Origin: Escherichia coli
GTDB lineage: Bacteria > Pseudomonadota > Gammaproteobacteria > Enterobacterales > Enterobacteriaceae
Assembly (NCBI RefSeq): GCF_011045215.1
Contig: NZ_CP049201.1
Reading direction: 5' to 3' (one strand)
Length of the DNA: 64,000 nucleotides
Shown here: positions 48,135 to 61,625 of the stretch, piece after piece
Position numbering within the stretch: position 1 is the stretch's first letter
How the letters are laid out: every line of letters starts with the position of its first letter
Position numbers and translations under genes: made by a program
Notes under the pieces: generated by a model
Databases searched by the model: none
Told to the model about the DNA's origin: nothing
The model's input: the letters and a program-made list of their open reading frames with translations, nothing else

Positions 48135-48237
48135 TCGAAAGTGTTCAGCCAGCCCCCTGCATCCAGCAGGGGGCTGTAATAAGCATTTTTGTACCGGATA
48201 AAAAGCGGCGATATTGCCGCTACTGAATGAGGTGATT

Positions 48238-49482
48238 ATGGCGTTACCTGCGGAAAGCCTGATTGCGTATACCCTGGAAAAAATGAAGCACCGTATGACC
48301 ACCGGAGCCCGGAAGGAGGAGGGGCGAATACGCAGCGGACTGTTGTTCACCGGCAATGTGCACGATGCCATTCCGCGTCGTCTGTTGCTGGATACGCGTC
48401 TTTCACCGCTGGACAAGATGGCATGGATGATGATCCGGCTGTATGCGCAGAATAATGAGGGGGCCATTTTTCCTACTTACGATGAACTGCAACTGCAGCT
48501 GGCATCGCCGGGAAAGGGAAAAGCTTCCAGAGAAACCGTCAGCCGGGTATTGCTGATGTTGCGGATCACGGGCTGGCTGAGCCTGTGTAAACGGGTACGT
48601 GATGATAAAGGCCGGGTTCGGGGAAACATTTACGCCCAGCATGACGAGCCCCTGACGTTCTGCGATGCAGAGGCGATGGATCCGCGTTATCTGGATATAG
48701 TGGCAGAAGCCTGTATGAGCCGGAACCGGACCATCAGTCAGACGGCACGGGATATTCTTTGTGAAATAAAAAATGATCCGGGAATGCGTCACTATCACAG
48801 CCATATCAGTCAGCTGGAAGCCCGGATAGGAAGTGCCCAGACACCGGGGCAGATGGCTGCCCGTCAGCGGGTGACAGAGGACAGAATGCGGCCGGGTTCG
48901 GAAACCGAACCAGTGGTGAGAACACTGAGTTCGGCACCGGAAAAGCTGAGTTCGGAAACCGAACCGGGTAAAAAAATGGGGCAAAAAAGACAGAGTTCGG
49001 ATCCCGAACCATCAGGAAAATCAGCAGGTTATCACAGAGTCCGGGAACCGAACCATTACGTACGTAATATCACACACAGTGTGATTAAAAACACGTACGT
49101 ACTGCCGGCGTCGCTGACGGGGCAAATCAGGGAGGAAGATGCCATCATGCTGACTAGTCAGTTGCAGGCGTTGCCGGAAGCGCTGGCACAGGGGGTGCTG
49201 GAAAGCCTGTCAGGGATGCTGGGCAGTCAGTCACTGCAGAACCCGGTGGGCTGGCTGCTTGCAGTGCTGAAGCGTGCCCGGGAGGGAAATTTTTATCCAC
49301 CGAAACAGAAACAGCGCGTCGCTGCATCAGCCACCATACAGGCGGGAGCGGGAGGGCGCACCACTTCGCAGCCTGTTGTCACCCGGAAACGTACAGAACC
49401 CATTTCAGCAGAACGTCTGAGTGGCATTGTGGCAGGACTACGGGCCTCCCTTCGCAACCGTCCTGCGATGAGAGCCCGGTGA
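48238..49482 (+). CDS. Island replication-protein-like gene (resembles the SPI-7 STY4528-type family)
   Basis: ATG 48238 preceded by gaggtga; ~414 aa; immediately followed by the iteron array; family assignment from memory, unverified. Confidence 0.6.
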   Translation: MALPAESLIAYTLEKMKHRMTTGARKEEGRIRSGLLFTGNVHDAIPRRLLLDTRLSPLDKMAWMMIRLYAQNNEGAIFPTYDELQLQLASPGKGKASRETVSRVLLMLRITGWLSLCKRVRDDKGRVRGNIYAQHDEPLTFCDAEAMDPRYLDIVAEACMSRNRTISQTARDILCEIKNDPGMRHYHSHISQLEARIGSAQTPGQMAARQRVTEDRMRPGSETEPVVRTLSSAPEKLSSETEPGKKMGQKRQSSDPEPSGKSAGYHRVREPNHYVRNITHSVIKNTYVLPASLTGQIREEDAIMLTSQLQALPEALAQGVLESLSGMLGSQSLQNPVGWLLAVLKRAREGNFYPPKQKQRVAASATIQAGAGGRTTSQPVVTRKRTEPISAERLSGIVAGLRASLRNRPAMRAR

Positions 49483-49506
49483 TGGCGTTGTGATTCACGT
49501 TCACAG

Positions 49507-50076
49507 AGAGCAAAAATCAACCAGTGCTGCCAGTGGCAGCATAGAGCAAAAATTAGCCAGTGCTGCTCGGGGCAGCATAGAGCAAAAATTAGCCAGTGCT
49601 GCCCGGGGCAGCATAGAGCAAAAATCAGCCAGTGCTGCCCGGGGCAGCATAGAGCAAAAATCAGCCAGTGCTGCCCGGAGCAGCATAGAGCAAAAATTAG
49701 CCAGTGCTGCCCGGGGCAGCATAGAGCAAAAATTAAGCAGTGCTGCCCGGGGCAGCATAGAGCAAAAATTAGCCAGTGCTGCCCGGGGCAGCATAGAGCA
49801 AAAATCAGCCAGTGCTGCCCGGGGCAGCATAGAGCAAAAATTAAGCAGTGCTGCCCGGGGCAGCATAGAGCAAAAATTAGCCAGTGCTGCCCGGGGCAGC
49901 ATAGAGCAAAAATCAGCCAGTGCTGCCCGGGGCAGCATAGAGCAAAAATCAGCCAGTACTGCCCGGAGCAGCATAGAGGAAAAATTAGTCAGTGCTGCCC
50001 GGGGCAGCATAGAGCAAAAATTAGGCAGTGCAGCCCGGGACAGCATAGAGTGAAAATTAGCCAGTGCTGCCAGTGT
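49507..50076. repeat. Tandem array of ~15 direct 36-bp repeats, each containing the 17-bp perfect palindrome tgctgcccggggcagca (iteron-like; candidate origin or centromere)
   Basis: Unit agagcaaaaat(t/c)agccagtgctgcccggggcagcat repeated head-to-tail with few substitutions; first and last units degenerate. Confidence 0.9.
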
Positions 50077-50354
50077 CACCAAAGAACAAAAATTATGCTG
50101 CGTCAGCAGCATGGAAGGCGGCGGCACTGAATATCCTGAAACATCTGACGGTAAACCGCCGAAGCCCGGCGTCAGCCGGAAACGTCCTGACAGGATGCAG
50201 TGCTCTCCCCGGCCCTGCCAGACCCTGTTTGTTTCAGGAAAAAGCCTGTGTCACATAAAAGAACCGGAGTACAGAGGTAAAACAGAATACTTGCCGCCGT
50301 TTTTTCCGTCAGTATACTTTTTCGTGCTGAAATTCTGGCTAAGGAAAGATTTTT

Positions 50355-54614: not shown

Positions 54615-55070
54615 ATGTCTGTAAATACTGCTAAAACTGAATACTTTAATCTGACCCTGAAAGGTCTGGGGTATCTCAGTAATGTACGTCAGGTGAATCA
54701 CCAGAACGGCTCGTTTCTCAGCTGTGTGGTGAATGCGCTGAGCGGACCCACGGACAGCCCGTCCTACGTCCGTTTTGATGTCACGGTTGCCGGTAAAGAG
54801 GCGACTGCCCTGATTGCCCGCTGCCAGAAGGCGGTGGATGAAGATCGCAAGGTGCTGCTTGGCTTCACGCTGAGCAACCTGTCCACTGACATCTTCACTC
54901 TGAACAAGGGAGAGCATGCCGGTGAACAACGCGTCAGCCTGAAGGCCCGCCTGATCAAGGTGGACTGGATCAAGATAGGCCAGGAGATGGTTTACAAGGC
55001 TGAAAAATCAGACTCCCAGCCGCCGCAAAACGGCACCATGCAACAGCAATACGCAGAAAACTCTTTCTGA
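54615..55070 (+). CDS. ICE-associated protein (151 aa; resembles the SPI-7 STY4534-type family)
   Basis: ATG preceded by ggaga; conserved position between topB and ssb; family assignment from memory. Confidence 0.55.
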   Translation: MSVNTAKTEYFNLTLKGLGYLSNVRQVNHQNGSFLSCVVNALSGPTDSPSYVRFDVTVAGKEATALIARCQKAVDEDRKVLLGFTLSNLSTDIFTLNKGEHAGEQRVSLKARLIKVDWIKIGQEMVYKAEKSDSQPPQNGTMQQQYAENSF

Positions 55071-55160
55071 TCGTACTTTTCTCAACCGTCCTGATGAAAA
55101 CAGACTGCCTCATCAGGGCGGTCTGTTTTCTTATTGTCTTTATCTTTAAGGAAACTTCTT

Positions 55161-55364
55161 ATGCAACAGCCAAATGGCATGCTGGCCGCACAGGCCGGCT
55201 ATACGTTACCCCTTCAGGTTCTCCGCAGCGTACGTGGTTATTATATTGGTACTCAGTGTGATGAGGGACCGGTGTCCCGCGAATCCGTGGAGTATTACAG
55301 AGACCATGAGCAGGCGGCACAGGCGCTGGAAAGCGGCACCTGGACGCAGCGGACGTGTGCGTGA
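55161..55364 (+). CDS. Hypothetical small protein (67 aa)
   Basis: ATG 55161 preceded by aagga; directly upstream of ssb. Confidence 0.4.
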   Translation: MQQPNGMLAAQAGYTLPLQVLRSVRGYYIGTQCDEGPVSRESVEYYRDHEQAAQALESGTWTQRTCA

Positions 55365-55379
55365 GGATGAGGAGGCTAT

Positions 55380-55913
55380 ATGGCATCACGCGGTATTAAT
55401 AAGGTGATACTGATAGGACATCTTGGACAGGATCCGGAGATTCGTTATCTTCCCAATGGCGGAGCCGTGGCGAACCTGACCCTGGCCACCAGTGAATCCT
55501 GGCGTGATAAACAGAGCGGTGAAATGAAGGAGCAGACCGAGTGGCACCGCGTGGTGATTTTCGGAAAACTGGCGGAGATAGCCGGTGAATACCTGCGTAA
55601 GGGTTCACAGGTGTACATCGAGGGCCAGTTAAAGACCCGGAAGTGGTTCGATCAGCAGAATGGTGTTGATCGCTACGCAACGGAAGTGGTGGTGAGTGTC
55701 AACGGCACCCTGCAGATGCTGGGCTCTCCGCGCCAGCAGGCCAGTGGTGCCGCACCCGTACACAGCGGTCAGGGAACTGCCGGTGCGCCGGCGGGTAACT
55801 CACCGTCACCGGCTTCCGGGAACGGCGGGGGAATGCCGATGGATTTTGACGACGACATTCCCTTCAGTGGACCGGGATATGGCGCTGAACGGCGGATTAT
55901 CCATGCCATGTAA
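55380..55913 (+). CDS. ssb: Single-stranded DNA-binding protein (island-encoded SSB)
   Basis: OB-fold N-terminus [44 protein letters not shown], Gly/Pro-rich linker, acidic tail DFDDDIPF. Confidence 0.92.
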
Positions 55914-55961
55914 TGTTAACCCCGGGGGCATCACTGCCCCCATTTTTACCAAGGAGGTATC

Positions 55962-56894
55962 GTGAGTGAAAAAAATCATACCACCCCCACGCCACACGAT
56001 GCGGCGTTCAGGGCGATGATGGAAACCCCTTCGGTTGCAAGGGATTTTCTGGAGGCTGCGTTGCCGCCGGCACAGTTACAGCGGTGCGATATGAACACCC
56101 TGAAGCTGGAGCCGGCCACGTTTGTGGATCCGGATTTGCGTCAGTATGCCAGTGACGTTCTGTGGAGCATGAAAACCACCGACGGGCGTGATGGTTACAT
56201 CTACGCGCTGACGGAACATCAGAGCTCTGCGGATCGTTTTATGGCCCTGCGCATGATGCATTATGTGCTGGCGATAATGTATCGTCACCTGAAAACGCAT
56301 AATCAGGCCCCCGTTGTGATCCCGGTGCTTTTTTATCACGGTGAACCCAGTCCGTATCCGTACAGCCTGAACTGGCTGGACTGTCTGGACGATCCGGCGC
56401 TTGGTCGTGAGCTTTACGGCGAAGGAAAGCCGCCCCGCGTCATTGATGTGGGTCTTCTTGATGATGAGGGTATCCGTCACTATCAGCAGATGGCGGCCCT
56501 GATGCTTCTGATGAAGGTCCGTCAGCGGAAGGGCGATCTGATGACGCAGCTTGACTTTCTGTCACAGTTGCTTCAGATACAGGGAACACACGATCAGGTG
56601 GTGGTTCTGTTAAACTATATGGTGAAGGCGTGCGATTCGGCTTCACCGGAATTTATACGGGTGATGGCAGAACATCTGCCCCGGTATGAGGATGATATTA
56701 TGACTATCGCTGAACGACTTGAACTGGCGGGTATCGAAAAAGGTATCGAAAAAGGCCGTCAGGAAGAGAGAGAAAAGGCGCTTGAGAAGACGCTTGAGGC
56801 TGCCCGTCGGATGCAGAAGATGGGGATGTCGCCTGAGAGTATTCAGGAGATCCTGCAGCTTTCTGATGACGAGCTGCGGAAAGCGCTCGGTTAA
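55962..56894 (+). CDS. Rpn-family (YhgA-like) PD-(D/E)XK recombination-promoting nuclease / putative transposase
   Basis: N-terminus TPHDAAFRAMMETPSVARDFL...YASDVLWSMKT...YIYALTEHQS resembles E. coli RpnA-E; C-terminal helical domain. Confidence 0.75.
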   Translation: MSEKNHTTPTPHDAAFRAMMETPSVARDFLEAALPPAQLQRCDMNTLKLEPATFVDPDLRQYASDVLWSMKTTDGRDGYIYALTEHQSSADRFMALRMMHYVLAIMYRHLKTHNQAPVVIPVLFYHGEPSPYPYSLNWLDCLDDPALGRELYGEGKPPRVIDVGLLDDEGIRHYQQMAALMLLMKVRQRKGDLMTQLDFLSQLLQIQGTHDQVVVLLNYMVKACDSASPEFIRVMAEHLPRYEDDIMTIAERLELAGIEKGIEKGRQEEREKALEKTLEAARRMQKMGMSPESIQEILQLSDDELRKALG

Positions 56895-56963
56895 TCCGTT
56901 TCCGTGTTATCACGGGGCGGGGTGTGGCTGATATGAGAGGCCACTTTCCGCATAATCAACATC

Positions 56964-56992
56964 ACGCCAGCTTTTACGCTGGCGTTTTTTTT
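56964..56992 (+). terminator. Rho-independent terminator downstream of the rpn-like gene
   Basis: acgccagc-tttt-acgctggcgt hairpin followed by an 8-T run. Confidence 0.8.
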
Positions 56993-57079
56993 GTTTACTG
57001 ATAATGAGTTGTTCGTTGAGCCTGCCGGCGCTTCTTTGCACAGTGACCGCTGTTTTATCACTGCAGAGGAGTTATCCGG

Positions 57080-57682
57080 ATGAAGATGCAACCCGGGATC
57101 TTATTTTCCCTGGTTACCCTGGCCCTGCTGGCCGGGTGTAACAGCCCACAAAAACTTCAGCAACGTGCGCCGGCCACGCCGGTACCTTCCGTCAGCGTTT
57201 CCCGCAATGTACAGCCGGTGTCACAGGATATTTATGCGCAGCCGGCACCGGAGGTGGTGCGTTACGACCGTTACCTGCTGGTCAGCACGGCACCGCAGGC
57301 CGCGCAGCGTGACCCGCTTTCCCAGGTGATTGATATCCGTATTCCGGCGTCGTTAAAGCCCACCGTGGCTGATGCCATGCGTTATGCCCTGAAACAGTCC
57401 GGTTACACGCTGTGTGTCACCGGGCCGGCCAATGGTGTGTTGTACCGCCAGCCCCTGCCCGCCGTGCAGTATCAGCAGGGACCGGTGCGACTGCGTACGG
57501 CCCTGCAGGTGATGGCGGGACCGGCCTGGCAACTGGAGGTGGATGACGTTCAGCGTGTGGTCTGCCACAGCCTGCGGGCGGGGTATCAGTTACCGGCAGG
57601 CCAGCTGGCACCCGTGTCGGTTTCCCCGGTAATCACGGCCCCGGTGGTGCAACCGGTTAAGGGAGGCTTCCTGAAAAAATGA
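57080..57682 (+). CDS. PilL-like conjugative-transfer lipoprotein
   Basis: Lipoprotein signal MKMQPGILFSLVTLALLAGC; position and size match ICE pilL-type genes. Confidence 0.6.
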   Translation: MKMQPGILFSLVTLALLAGCNSPQKLQQRAPATPVPSVSVSRNVQPVSQDIYAQPAPEVVRYDRYLLVSTAPQAAQRDPLSQVIDIRIPASLKPTVADAMRYALKQSGYTLCVTGPANGVLYRQPLPAVQYQQGPVRLRTALQVMAGPAWQLEVDDVQRVVCHSLRAGYQLPAGQLAPVSVSPVITAPVVQPVKGGFLKK

Positions 57683-61469: not shown

Positions 61470-61625
61470 CCCGTGTGCAGGCAAATGTTCCTTGCAAAAT
61501 GGCATCTGAATCGATCGCAGTTTGGCATTCGAATCGATCATGATTTGGCATCCATCTCCGATCACAGTTTGGCATCACAATCGATCACGATTTGGCATAC
61601 TTCCGATCATTGATTGGAATTCGCC
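61470..61625. repeat. IS21-family terminal region with multiple direct repeats (putative transposase binding sites)
   Basis: Five copies of tttggcat-N8-10-gatc(a/g) immediately upstream of istA. Confidence 0.7.

What the first reader, a model, noticed from the sequence alone, without database searches (positions are those of the whole stretch)
55962..56894. Rpn-family PD-(D/E)XK nuclease carried as cargo between ssb and the pilL-like gene, with its own terminator
Rpn (YhgA-like) proteins are normally chromosomal paralogs in E. coli; here one sits inside the island's conserved backbone, followed by a strong terminator at 56964-56992. Rpn proteins have been reported to promote RecA-independent recombination, and I recall reports that the C-terminal domain can be produced from an internal start as a cognate antitoxin (unverified from memory). 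An island-borne copy could act in addiction or defence, or in island recombination.
Basis: partly seen in the sequence, partly recalled or inferred. Interest (0 to 1): 0.55.

Follow-up and report, generated by a model that had tools for sequence, protein, structure and literature searches.

The report
ICE-borne Rpn nuclease with internal antitoxin
The gene is an intact Rpn-family DNA nuclease that also carries its own small antitoxin reading frame inside it, a toxin-antitoxin type described in 2023; here it sits in a swappable cargo slot of an E. coli conjugative island, so it is a new example of a known kind of system.

Summary
The ORF at 55962-56894 (+, 310 aa) is real and belongs to the Rpn/YhgA family (Pfam PF04754 E=3e-61; TIGR01784 above its cut-off). 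All residues shown to be needed in RpnA (D11, D63, E82, Q84, R94) are present. An in-frame ATG at 56700 (M247) follows a GAGGA Shine-Dalgarno and aligns with the verified RpnA internal start M244. It would give a 64-aa RpnS antitoxin. Ten residues into RpnS lies a perfect 12-nt tandem repeat (GIEK x2). Among near-identical island copies in 36 E. coli genomes this tail differs only in steps of 12 nt (-36 to +12; 0 to about 4 GIEK units). That is the published hallmark of Rpn toxin-antitoxin pairs.

The host is E. coli and the island is an SPI-7/PFGI-1-class ICE next to cadC. Three diverged ICE lineages (two E. coli, one Salmonella) carry rpn between ssb and pilL. None of the 42 of 52 ICE loci from other species in which the slot could be delimited does. 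There the slot is empty or holds DUF29, DhiTA-like DUF4160/DUF2442, PIN, GNAT or DndB-like genes.

The terminator at 56964-56992 is real, but it is a conserved backbone feature, not rpn's own. Toxicity, antitoxin action and phage defence are untested. This is a new member of a known kind, of moderate interest.

The parts
55924..55947 (+). Hairpin GGGGGCATCACTGCCCCC followed by ATTTTT, directly after the ssb stop codon and directly before the rpn ribosome-binding site. Candidate attenuator of read-through from ssb into rpnL.
   Evidence: terminator-like, 7 pairs, 6 G-C; dG -14.9 kcal/mol. The diverged rpn-bearing ICE L004 keeps a hairpin here with a changed stem (GGGGCG/CGCCCC). The attenuator role is inferred.
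55951..55957 (+). Shine-Dalgarno AAGGAGG for the full-length protein (RpnL); the GTG start is 4 nt downstream.
   Evidence: Read directly from the sequence.
55962..56894 (+). rpnL: 310-aa Rpn-family PD-(D/E)XK nuclease (predicted toxin). Equivalents of the RpnA catalytic residues: D13 (55998-56000), D65 (56154-56156), E85 (56214-56216), Q87 (56220-56222), R97 (56250-56252).
   Evidence: alignment with K-12 RpnA/B/C/E; RpnA mutant data in PMC5350276. dN/dS of the N-terminal domain is 0.06-0.29 against eight E. coli ICE alleles and one Salmonella allele. AlphaFold model: mean pLDDT 84.9.
55989..56591 (+). Region encoding the Transposase_31/YhgA-like domain (residues 10-210), which contains the PD-(D/E)XK core.
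   Evidence: E=3e-61. The best structural neighbours are PD-(D/E)XK nucleases (Cap4, EcoO109I, Nt.BspD6I, EndoMS, XisH), but only weakly, with E of 0.02 or worse.
56688..56692 (+). Internal Shine-Dalgarno GAGGA, 7 nt upstream of the internal ATG.
   Evidence: The diverged ICE lineage has AAGGGGG at the same place although the encoded residues differ (HKGVI against YEDDI).
56700..56894 (+). rpnS: in-frame internal reading frame from M247, 64 aa (MTIAERLELAGIEKGIEKGRQ...). Predicted antitoxin and oligomerisation domain.
   Evidence: M247 aligns with RpnA M244, the experimentally verified internal start. The MTIA motif is invariant or nearly so in 46 homologues down to 37% identity. The model has a long helix plus two short helices. 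The top PDB match among 350,542 chains is 7TH0, E. coli RpnA-S, but with E=1.
56730..56753 (+). Perfect tandem repeat (GGTATCGAAAAA) x2, encoding GIEK-GIEK (residues 257-264; starts at residue 11 of RpnS). Hypervariable specificity region.
   Evidence: Sequenced alleles carry 0, 1, 2, 3 or 4 GIEK units in otherwise closely related ICE copies (N-domain dS 0.03-0.06; region about 96-97% identical). Tail lengths in 34 of 36 E. coli genomes differ from the window by -36, -24, -12, 0 or +12 nt.
56772..56795 (+). Second, imperfect 12-nt repeat encoding EKAL-EKTL. One unit is missing in some alleles (R-KKTLE).
   Evidence: 56775-56798, period 12, 91% matches.
56964..56992 (+). Intrinsic terminator (ACGCCAGC-TTTTAC-GCTGGCGT plus T8) that closes the ssb-to-cargo transcription unit. 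ICE backbone feature.
   Evidence: Positionally conserved in other ICE loci regardless of cargo, with stem changes that keep the pairing.

Best explanation
This is an RpnL/RpnS gene-within-gene toxin-antitoxin module carried as cargo in the ssb-pilL slot of an SPI-7/PFGI-1-class integrative conjugative element of E. coli. The full-length 310-aa product (RpnL) is a sequence-nonspecific PD-(D/E)XK DNA endonuclease that is toxic when unopposed. A second product, the 64-aa RpnS, is translated from the in-frame ATG at 56700 behind its own GAGGA Shine-Dalgarno. RpnS consists of the C-terminal helical domain that RpnL also carries, binds RpnL through that shared domain, and blocks it. The number of 4-aa units (GIEK, EK[A/T]L) in the long first helix sets which RpnS fits which RpnL. 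The 12-nt tandem DNA repeats let that number change quickly, plausibly by slippage. RpnL can only be transcribed by read-through of a -15 kcal/mol hairpin after ssb, or from a promoter inside ssb, so it is probably made at a low level. The most likely benefit is defence of the ICE-carrying cell against phage or other incoming DNA, with stabilisation of the ICE as a side effect. Shown here: family membership, intact catalytic residues, the conserved internal start with its Shine-Dalgarno, repeat-number polymorphism, purifying selection, and cargo status. Taken from Zhong et al. 2023 and Kingston et al. 2017 rather than shown here: nuclease activity, toxicity, neutralisation by RpnS, repeat-number specificity, and phage defence.
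For: Family: PF04754 E=3e-61; TIGR01784 119.5 bits against 52.1. Catalytic residues D13/D65/E85/Q87/R97 align with RpnA D11/D63/E82/Q84/R94, whose mutation alters the RpnA phenotypes (D11A, D63A, E82A and Q84K abolish all three; Q84A and R94A abolish only recombination) (PMC5350276), and are invariant in 46 homologues. Internal start: M247 aligns with the verified RpnA start M244; GAGGA-N7-ATG here and AAGGGGG-N5-ATG in a lineage about 50% identical, despite different residues. Repeats: a perfect 12-nt x2 repeat starts at RpnS residue 11, inside the published range of 8-20. Tail lengths in E. coli ICE copies differ only by multiples of 12 nt, with counts 6/1/23/5/1 for -36/-24/-12/0/+12. Alleles with 0, 1, 2, 3 and 4 GIEK units were read. 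Selection: N-domain dN/dS 0.06-0.29. Cargo status: rpn lies between ssb and pilL in three diverged ICE lineages and in none of 42 anchored ICE loci from other species. There the slot is empty (13 loci), holds DUF29, DUF4160/DUF2442 (DhiTA toxin-antitoxin, PMC8198452), PIN, GNAT, DndB-like or IS4 genes (28 loci), or holds unclassified ORFs (1 locus). GC content is 53.6% for rpn against 57-62% for the flanking genes. A diverged ICE lineage also has a separate downstream copy of the tail (RpnSs-like), as described for rpnE-ypaA.
Against: No experiment or expression data exist for this locus. The consensus scan found no sigma-70 promoter on the + strand inside rpn upstream of 56700, so a separate rpnS transcript is unproven. 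The tail is not recognised by sequence against the RpnA-S crystal structure, and the fold match is rank 1 but not significant (E=1). Close ICE homologues lack the precomputed Pfam HTH_Rpn_C (PF27070) hit that plasmid and chromosomal relatives have. PADLOC matches only a 'putative invertase' model, on the tail, at E=1e-5. Only one plasmid Rpn (RpnP2) has been shown to defend against phage, modestly and under special conditions. RpnA's PDDE motif reads DDEG here.
Confidence: 0.7

Rival explanations
1. The module mainly serves the ICE as an addiction (post-segregational killing or stabilisation) system. Cells that lose the excised ICE would lose RpnS faster than RpnL and be killed. Phage defence would be incidental or absent.
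For: The same slot in related ICEs holds classical toxin-antitoxin-type modules: DUF4160/DUF2442 (DhiTA), PIN and GNAT. Rpn behaves as a toxin-antitoxin pair. This ICE family forms an excised circular intermediate that can be lost (general knowledge).
Against: Zhong et al. report that RpnS is stable and appears to be released rather than degraded, which does not fit classical killing after loss. Rapid repeat-number diversification is easier to explain by conflict with an outside agent than by self-addiction. The slot is empty in 13 of 42 ICEs, so no module there is required for maintenance.
Confidence: 0.2
2. The ssb-proximal slot is the ICE counterpart of a plasmid leading-region island. Rpn would be expressed early after transfer and act in conflict between mobile elements: RpnS would neutralise resident Rpn nucleases of matching repeat class, or RpnL would attack competing DNA.
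For: The nearest non-ICE relative (P0012, 57% identity) lies in the leading region of I-complex plasmids, in the order ssb-psiB-psiA-ardA-...-rpn-small tail gene-...-nikA/nikB, all on one strand pointing towards oriT. Leading regions are enriched for SSB genes, toxin-antitoxin genes and orphan antitoxins (PMC11541004). One ICE lineage carries an extra RpnS-like copy whose repeat number does not match its neighbouring RpnL.
Against: The oriT and transfer polarity of this ICE are unknown, and its relaxase lies outside the window. In the distantly related ICEclc the inrR promoter, in the regulatory region that extends to ssb, is active only in transfer-competent donor cells (PMC12409273); recipient-side early expression was not examined there. 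There is no evidence that an RpnS acts on a non-self RpnL.
Confidence: 0.1
3. Rpn acts as a recombination-promoting nuclease for the ICE itself. It would make breaks that drive RecA-independent exchange of cargo, tails or whole segments between related ICEs.
For: Overexpressed Rpn proteins raise RecA-independent recombination (PMC5350276). The rpn tail is mosaic in strain A19: tail dS is 1.19 against 0.058 for the N-terminal domain. The slot next to rpn gains and loses genes, such as the 216-aa ORF in A41 and KE41 and IS600 in JNEC-KY171. Zhong et al. speculate that RpnL may drive repeat expansion.
Against: The recombination phenotype was seen only on overexpression and is now attributed to DNA damage by the unblocked toxin. 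ICEs without rpn show equal or greater turnover in the slot.
Confidence: 0.07
4. The gene is an inactive relic or an IS-type transposase gene (RefSeq names some relatives 'ISNCY family transposase').
For: The best NCBIfam equivalog model is named ISNCY family transposase, and PHROG 3300 is labelled transposase. K-12 RpnE is annotated as inactive.
Against: The reading frame is intact, the catalytic residues are conserved and dN/dS is 0.06-0.29. No terminal inverted repeats or target duplications flank it; the only candidate is a 10-nt pair inside coding sequence. It holds the same position in ICE lineages diverged to about 50% identity. Zhong et al. found no evidence of autonomous transposition.
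Confidence: 0.03

Closest known systems
E. coli RpnA-RpnE (YhgA-like) RpnL/RpnS toxin-antitoxin genes-within-genes (Kingston et al. 2017, PMC5350276; Zhong et al. 2023, PMC10400941)
   Same: Same Pfam domain. Same catalytic residues (D, D, E-x-Q, R). Same MTIAE internal start, aligned to RpnA M244. Same 4-aa repeat array, including the KGIE/GIEK unit of RpnC, beginning about 10 residues into RpnS. Same strain-to-strain variation in repeat number.
   Different: Only 38-44% identical to K-12 RpnA/B/C/E and below the NCBIfam equivalog cut-offs (252 and 230 bits against 583), so it is not an orthologue of those tested (RpnD was not compared). It is carried on an ICE, downstream of ssb with a hairpin and no room for a promoter in between. 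Its tail belongs to a 52+4n length series rather than 49+4n and has a second repeat (EK[A/T]L). RpnA's PDDE motif reads DDEG.
Plasmid-borne Rpn such as RpnP2 (phage defence shown) and the I-complex plasmid Rpn cluster P0012
   Same: Rpn carried on a conjugative element a few kb from or next to an ssb gene. Some have a separate downstream RpnS-like gene, as in one ICE lineage.
   Different: 57% identity at most. The carrier is a plasmid with an MPF_I transfer system and MOBP relaxase, against a PFGI-1/SPI-7-class ICE. The plasmid tails score as Pfam HTH_Rpn_C; the ICE tails do not in the precomputed annotation. I did not have the RpnP2 sequence, so its identity to this protein is unknown.
rpnE-ypaA and rpnC-rpnCSs arrangement (a separately encoded second RpnS)
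   Same: The diverged E. coli ICE lineage (MS15052, TUM1887, FDAARGOS_1287) has an 82-aa gene downstream of rpnL. It is a duplicate of the last 314 nt of rpnL, including 80 nt upstream of the internal start.
   Different: The window's own copy has no such second gene. In the ICE case the duplicate has 16 fewer residues (four 4-aa units) than its neighbouring RpnL.
Variable cargo hotspots of ICEs that hold defence or toxin-antitoxin genes (for example the SXT/R391 hotspots; from my own knowledge)
   Same: A fixed intergenic position in a conserved backbone, where unrelated small toxin-antitoxin or defence-type modules replace one another between related elements.
   Different: A different ICE family and position (between ssb and the pilL promoter region). 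The contents here are mostly very small modules, and none has been tested for defence.

Membership tests
Rpn / YhgA-like family (PF04754, TIGR01784) | Significant match to the Transposase_31/YhgA-like domain model, above the curated family cut-off | tested here: met
   PF04754 E=3e-61, residues 10-210. TIGR01784 119.5 bits against a cut-off of 52.1.
Rpn / YhgA-like family (PF04754, TIGR01784) | PD-(D/E)XK-type catalytic residues equivalent to RpnA D11, D63, E82, Q84, R94 | tested here: met
   D13, D65, E85, Q87 and R97 align with them and are invariant in 46 homologues. The residue list comes from PMC5350276.
Rpn / YhgA-like family (PF04754, TIGR01784) | PD-(D/E)XK nuclease fold | tested here: inconclusive
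   The model is confident (pLDDT 84.9). The top PDB neighbours are PD-(D/E)XK nucleases (Cap4, EcoO109I, Nt.BspD6I, EndoMS, XisH), but with E of 0.02 or worse and TM about 0.2. No full-length Rpn structure is in the PDB.
Rpn / YhgA-like family (PF04754, TIGR01784) | Mg-dependent DNA endonuclease activity; toxicity or SOS induction on expression | not testable with these tools
   Requires expression and biochemistry.
Orthologue of a named K-12 paralogue (RpnA-E) | Score above the NCBIfam equivalog cut-off, or high identity to one paralogue | tested here: not met
   PRK09956 252 bits and the RpnA model 230 bits, both against a cut-off of 583. Identity is 44/42/38/44% to RpnA/B/C/E. RpnD was not fetched.
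RpnL/RpnS gene-within-gene toxin-antitoxin (Zhong et al. 2023) | In-frame internal start codon with a ribosome-binding site at the start of the C-terminal domain | tested here: met
   ATG 56700 (M247) aligns with RpnA M244. GAGGA lies 7 nt upstream. An SD-like element is kept in the lineage about 50% identical despite different residues.
RpnL/RpnS gene-within-gene toxin-antitoxin (Zhong et al. 2023) | Four-amino-acid repeats starting 8-20 residues after the RpnS Met, with copy number varying between strains | tested here: met
   GIEK x2 starts at RpnS residue 11. Alleles have 0-4 units. Five length classes were seen, all multiples of 12 nt, in 34 of 36 E. coli genomes.
RpnL/RpnS gene-within-gene toxin-antitoxin (Zhong et al. 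2023) | Internal promoter giving a short rpnS transcript | tested here: inconclusive
   The consensus scan finds no + strand sigma-70 site inside rpn, but that scan is crude. It needs 5'-end mapping.
RpnL/RpnS gene-within-gene toxin-antitoxin (Zhong et al. 2023) | RpnS folds as a three-helix domain with a long first helix, like RpnA-S (PDB 7TH0) | tested here: inconclusive
   The model has helices at 3-40, 45-51 and 56-63, with pLDDT 78. 7TH0 is the top hit of 350,542 chains, but with E=1.0, probability 0.77 and target-normalised TM 0.64. There is no sequence-level hit to 7TH0.
RpnL/RpnS gene-within-gene toxin-antitoxin (Zhong et al. 2023) | Pfam HTH_Rpn_C (PF27070) on the tail | tested here: inconclusive
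   The close ICE homologues P0001-P0011 carry no precomputed PF27070 hit, whereas P0012 and more distant relatives do. My own Pfam scan did not report it; its library reported PF04754.18, while the precomputed hits cite PF04754.19, so it may predate PF27070.
RpnL/RpnS gene-within-gene toxin-antitoxin (Zhong et al. 2023) | RpnS binds and neutralises the cognate RpnL; the system protects against phage | not testable with these tools
   Requires genetics, biochemistry and phage plating.
Insertion sequence / autonomous transposase | Terminal inverted repeats and target-site duplication flanking the gene | tested here: not met
   The only flanking inverted pair has 10-nt arms at 90% complementarity, inside the ssb and rpn coding sequences. 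The slot boundaries are the ssb stop codon and the backbone terminator.

The most novel reading that the evidence does not exclude
The ssb-pilL slot of SPI-7/PFGI-1-class ICEs would be the functional counterpart of a plasmid leading-region island. The hypervariable Rpn module there would work in conflict between mobile elements. Repeat number would define immunity classes, so that an incoming ICE's RpnS (or the mismatched extra RpnS copy seen in one lineage) disarms resident Rpn nucleases of the same class, or RpnL attacks rival elements, rather than simply defending against phage.
Probability: 0.1. Interest if true: 0.7.

Novelty: new member of a known kind. Interest (0 to 1): 0.35.

Why it matters
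It extends the 2023 Rpn toxin-antitoxin model to a conjugative island and provides a natural allelic series. Closely related ICE copies (region about 96-97% identical) differ by 0-4 GIEK units, which suits tests of how repeat number sets toxin-antitoxin specificity and what selects for its change. It also marks the ssb-pilL junction of this ICE family as a cargo slot where small toxin-antitoxin or defence-type modules replace one another (Rpn, DhiTA-like, PIN, GNAT, DndB-like, DUF29). That is useful for annotating these islands and for finding new modules; DUF29 and a 194-aa protein are unexplained occupants. The ssb-adjacent position is echoed by plasmid Rpn genes in leading regions, which gives a testable link between Rpn and the establishment of conjugative elements.

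Tried and rejected
1. Sequence search of the full protein and of the tail against the PDB. The full protein gave nothing. The tail hit only designed helical repeat proteins, not RpnA-S; a control search with the RpnA tail did find 7TH0.
2. Foldseek of the full-length model against the PDB gave only weak matches to PD-(D/E)XK nucleases.
3. PADLOC gave no defence-system call for Rpn, only a 'putative invertase' model on the tail. It gave no hits for the other slot proteins except DndB.
4. The promoter scan found no internal + strand promoter. I inspected the 80 nt upstream of the internal start by eye and found nothing convincing.
5. An Rfam scan of 55000-57400 found nothing at E of 1 or better.
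6. The search for IS-like terminal repeats was negative.
7. A literature search for Rpn in ICEs found no paper linking the two.
8. I considered locating oriT and transfer polarity to test the leading-region idea. The relaxase and oriT lie outside the window and cannot be identified from annotation, so I dropped it.
9. I rejected the idea that rpn is part of the conserved backbone, because it is absent from the slot in every other species examined.
Full report
**The observation**

The window carries an ORF at 55962-56894 on the + strand: 310 codons, a GTG start, and AAGGAGG 4 nt upstream. RefSeq annotates the same start in E. coli homologues.

- Pfam assigns residues 10-210 to Transposase_31/YhgA-like (PF04754, E=3e-61).
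- NCBIfam places the protein in the Rpn family (TIGR01784, 119.5 bits against a cut-off of 52.1).
- It stays far below the equivalog cut-offs for named paralogues (252 and 230 bits against 583).
- The gene lies between ssb (55380-55913) and a PilL N-terminal-domain gene (57080-57682).

**Host and element**

The first 25 kb of the window is E. coli chromosome (adiA, fumB, eptA, proP and neighbours), 99.2% identical to O157:H7/O55:H7-group genomes. From about 37.9 kb, next to cadC, the sequence is an integrative conjugative element. Its genes are annotated in close relatives as SPI-7-type DnaB, STY4528 and STY4534 ICE replication proteins, topoisomerase III, ssb, PFGI-1-class PilL2, TraD and TIGR037xx ICE proteins. 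The ssb-rpn-pilL stretch is 96.9% identical at best to other E. coli genomes and matches 92 of 5,426 complete genomes, always on the chromosome.

**Is the nuclease intact?**

I aligned the protein with K-12 RpnA, RpnB, RpnC and RpnE, fetched from MG1655.

- D13, D65, E85, Q87 and R97 sit on RpnA D11, D63, E82, Q84 and R94. Kingston et al. showed that mutating these residues alters the RpnA phenotypes: D11A, D63A, E82A and Q84K abolish recombination, toxicity and SOS induction together, while Q84A and R94A abolish recombination but remain toxic (PMC5350276).
- All five are invariant in a 46-sequence alignment.
- RpnA's PDDE motif, where D165A is hyperactive, reads DDEG here.
- Identity to the K-12 paralogues is 38-44%, so this is a separate Rpn lineage rather than an orthologue of the four compared (RpnD was not fetched).
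- dN/dS of the N-terminal domain is 0.06-0.29 against eight E. coli ICE alleles and one Salmonella allele. The gene is under purifying selection.
- An AlphaFold model is confident (pLDDT 84.9). Its best PDB neighbours are PD-(D/E)XK nucleases, but only weakly (E of 0.02 or worse).

**The internal antitoxin frame**

Zhong et al. 2023 (PMC10400941) showed the following:

- All E. coli rpn genes, and one from C. difficile, produce a small RpnS protein from an internal translation start.
- RpnS neutralises the toxic full-length RpnL by direct binding.
- Both proteins contain a run of 4-aa repeats beginning 8-20 residues after the RpnS methionine.
- The repeat number varies between strains and determines which RpnS blocks which RpnL.
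- One plasmid system, RpnP2, gives modest protection against T-even phages.

Every sequence-level element of this design is present here:

- ATG 56700 (M247) aligns exactly with RpnA M244, the start verified by mutation.
- The MTIA motif is invariant or nearly so across the 46 homologues, down to 37% identity.
- GAGGA lies 7 nt upstream. In a second ICE lineage only about 50% identical the encoded residues differ (HKGVI against YEDDI), yet the DNA still reads AAGGGGG 5 nt before the ATG.
- The predicted RpnS is 64 aa. At its residue 11 begins a perfect tandem repeat, (GGTATCGAAAAA) x2, encoding GIEK-GIEK (56730-56753). A second, imperfect 12-nt repeat follows, encoding EKAL-EKTL (56772-56795).
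- A model of the tail has one long helix and two short ones. Its top match among 350,542 PDB chains is 7TH0, the RpnA-S crystal structure, but at E=1, so I count this as inconclusive.

**Repeat-number polymorphism**

I queried E. coli complete genomes with the tail region. Thirty-six genomes hold it.

| Difference from the window's tail | Genomes |
|---|---|
| -36 nt | 6 |
| -24 nt | 1 |
| -12 nt | 23 |
| 0 | 5 |
| +12 nt | 1 |
| Tail replaced beyond the repeat | 2 |

All differences are multiples of 12 nt. Reading representative alleles shows 0 (KE41), 1 (8178, NGF1, VG35A2), 2 (this window, A41), 3 (RM11911) and 4 (F2_407_2_2) GIEK units, plus presence or absence of one EK[A/T]L unit. These occur in ICE copies whose N-terminal domains differ at only a few percent of synonymous sites. 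Strain A19 has an N-terminal domain nearly identical to the window's (dS 0.058) but a tail with dS 1.19, which indicates a swapped tail. This is the behaviour Zhong et al. describe for chromosomal rpn genes.

**Cargo or backbone?**

Three diverged ICE lineages carry rpn in exactly this position:

- the window type;
- a second E. coli type (MS15052, TUM1887, FDAARGOS_1287), with pilL 77% identical in nucleotides and Rpn about 48-50% identical;
- a Salmonella enterica type, with Rpn 62% identical.

I then anchored on PilL and scanned one genome per species. That returned 52 ICE loci from Enterobacterales and Pasteurellaceae. In 42 of them ssb or the STY4534 gene could be found upstream of pilL, and none has rpn there.

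| Slot content | Loci |
|---|---|
| Empty (gap 96-264 nt) | 13 |
| DUF29 protein of about 145 aa, alone | 11 |
| DUF4160/DUF2442 pair | 9 (plus 1 with an IS4 insertion) |
| Combinations with a PIN protein, a GNAT acetyltransferase, a DndB-like DGQHR protein or an unknown 194-aa protein | 7 |
| 4.8 kb of other, unclassified ORFs (Avibacterium) | 1 |

The DUF4160/DUF2442 pair is listed as the type II toxin-antitoxin pair DhiTA of Dickeya dadantii, in a paper titled as identifying three such systems; I read only its table (PMC8198452).

So rpn is cargo in a slot where small toxin-antitoxin or defence-type modules replace one another. Its GC content (53.6%) is also below that of the flanking backbone genes (57-62%).

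**The terminator**

I compared the 230 nt upstream of pilL across loci. Hairpins of related sequence, each followed by a T-run, lie immediately before a conserved AGAGTTGTT(A/C)ATTGAG motif in the more closely related loci: L001, L004, L007-L010, L012, L017, L025 and L026, and the window itself. This holds whatever the slot contains, including the cargo-free L026. The stems differ but keep their pairing (ACGCCAGC/GCTGGCGT, ACGCTGACC/GGTCGGCGT, GCGCCGACC/GGTTGGCGC and others). In the more diverged loci the picture is weaker: L038 and L041 keep a hairpin and T-run but not the motif, and L048 and L051 show neither clearly.

The terminator therefore belongs to the backbone and closes the ssb-to-cargo transcription unit. 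It did not arrive with rpn.

A second hairpin (55924-55941, -14.9 kcal/mol, then ATTTTT) sits between the ssb stop codon and the rpn ribosome-binding site, and is kept with a changed stem in the diverged rpn lineage. There is no room for a promoter between it and the Shine-Dalgarno, and the consensus scan finds none in the 3' part of ssb. I infer that rpnL is transcribed by attenuated read-through from ssb. In the distantly related ICEclc the inrR promoter, in the regulatory region that runs from attL to ssb, is active only in transfer-competent cells (PMC12409273). Whether the same applies here is unknown. An internal promoter for rpnS, reported for the K-12 genes, could not be shown.

**Relatives on other elements**

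- Rpn homologues occur on 4,804 of 72,556 plasmids, 3,017 of them conjugative. All but three are below 60% identity, and the three closest fall in the 60-80% band. Rpn is therefore not mainly a chromosomal family, and the ICE clade is distinct.
- The nearest non-ICE cluster (P0012, 57% identity) lies in the leading region of I-complex plasmids. The order is ssb, parB-like, psiB, psiA, ardA, several small genes, rpn, a small gene with a faint HTH_Rpn_C hit, then nikA-nikB, all on one strand.
- Leading regions are reported to be enriched in SSB genes, toxin-antitoxin genes and orphan antitoxins (PMC11541004).
- The second E. coli ICE lineage also carries, downstream of rpnL, an 82-aa gene. It is a duplicate of the last 314 nt of rpnL, including 80 nt upstream of the internal start, but has four fewer 4-aa units. 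This resembles the rpnE-ypaA arrangement of K-12.
- A 66-position PHROG profile (phrog_5416) matches the RpnS tail end to end, so stand-alone RpnS-like proteins exist in phages or prophages.

These parallels motivate the more novel reading, a role in conflict between mobile elements. They do not establish it.

**Verdict**

The feature is real and intact. By every sequence criterion I could test, it is an RpnL/RpnS gene-within-gene toxin-antitoxin nuclease. It is a new, ICE-borne lineage of a family whose mechanism was published in 2023.

What this analysis adds:
- the context, a replaceable cargo slot between ssb and the pilL promoter region;
- a natural series of repeat-number alleles;
- the correction that the terminator is a backbone feature.

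Function (toxicity, neutralisation, defence against addiction) is inferred from the family and untested here.

Noticed in passing
window 49507-50095: A tandem array of a 36-nt unit, 16.4 copies at 92% matches (AGAGCAAAAATTAGCCAGTGCTGCCCGGGGCAGCAT). It begins about 25 nt after the ORF (48214-49482) that corresponds to the STY4528-family ICE replication protein. It could be an iteron-like or origin-like array, or a repetitive coding region (ORFs 49490-50053 + and 49501-50127 - overlap it).
   Followed up: no
window 61500-61623: About 4 copies of a 23-nt unit (or 2.4 copies of a 47-nt unit) in a stretch where GC drops to 47%, downstream of the ICE genes that follow pilL.
   Followed up: no
window ~37900-42500: The left end of the ICE abuts cadC, with an integrase fragment and parA as in E. 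coli 8178. No tRNA gene is found anywhere in the window. Between about 39.3 and 42.5 kb the window has extra small ORFs that the otherwise collinear 8178 ICE lacks.
   Followed up: partly
L004:3668-3916 (E. coli MS15052; also L005, L006): A diverged ICE lineage has a separate 82-aa gene after rpnL. It duplicates the RpnS region, including 80 nt upstream of the internal start, but carries four fewer 4-aa repeats than the neighbouring RpnL. By the published specificity rule it should not neutralise its own neighbour.
   Followed up: partly
L074:8992-10162 (plasmid pZ1323HEC0494-3, IncK2/Z); L071-L073: The closest non-ICE Rpn (57% identity) sits in the plasmid leading region between ardA and nikA/oriT, on the same strand as ssb, psiB, psiA and ardA. 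A small gene follows it; in L071-L073 the corresponding 69-77-aa product has a faint HTH_Rpn_C hit.
   Followed up: partly
L007:2680-3330 (E. coli A41) and L066:1247-1897 (KE41): Some window-type ICEs have an extra 216-aa hypothetical protein inserted between rpn and the backbone terminator. A41's has no hit in NCBIfam, PADLOC, PHROGs or Pfam; KE41's was not scanned.
   Followed up: partly
window 56368-56388 (rpn residues ~136-143, LNWLDCLD): A 9-nt near-repeat (TGAACTGGCTGG / TGGACTGTCTGG). It coincides with a 3-aa LDC insertion/deletion polymorphism in the N-terminal domain of close homologues (two LDC units in P0002, none in P0003). Strain A41 has a separate 4-aa duplication (YQQS) near residue 175.
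   Followed up: no
ssb-pilL slot of L009, L010, L014, L015, L018, L019, L038, L040, L043 and others: The commonest occupant of the slot in other species is a DUF29 protein (PF01724, about 145 aa) of unknown function, sometimes alongside toxin-antitoxin-type genes. A 194-aa protein with no family hit sits next to it in two Pectobacterium ICEs (L041, L047).
   Followed up: partly
PHROG phrog_5416 against the RpnS tail (window 56700-56891): A 66-position phage protein family matches the RpnS tail end to end (E=4e-4). Phages or prophages therefore encode stand-alone RpnS-like proteins, which could be orphan antitoxins or counter-defence proteins.
   Followed up: no
L001:24958-25563; L004:7344-7934; L068:8390-8960 (window equivalent downstream of pilL): A gene annotated 'restriction endonuclease' (L001, L004), with a Pfam Mrr_cat (PF04471) hit in the Salmonella ICE (L068), is a conserved backbone gene about 3 kb downstream of pilL in all three rpn-bearing ICE lineages.
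   Followed up: no
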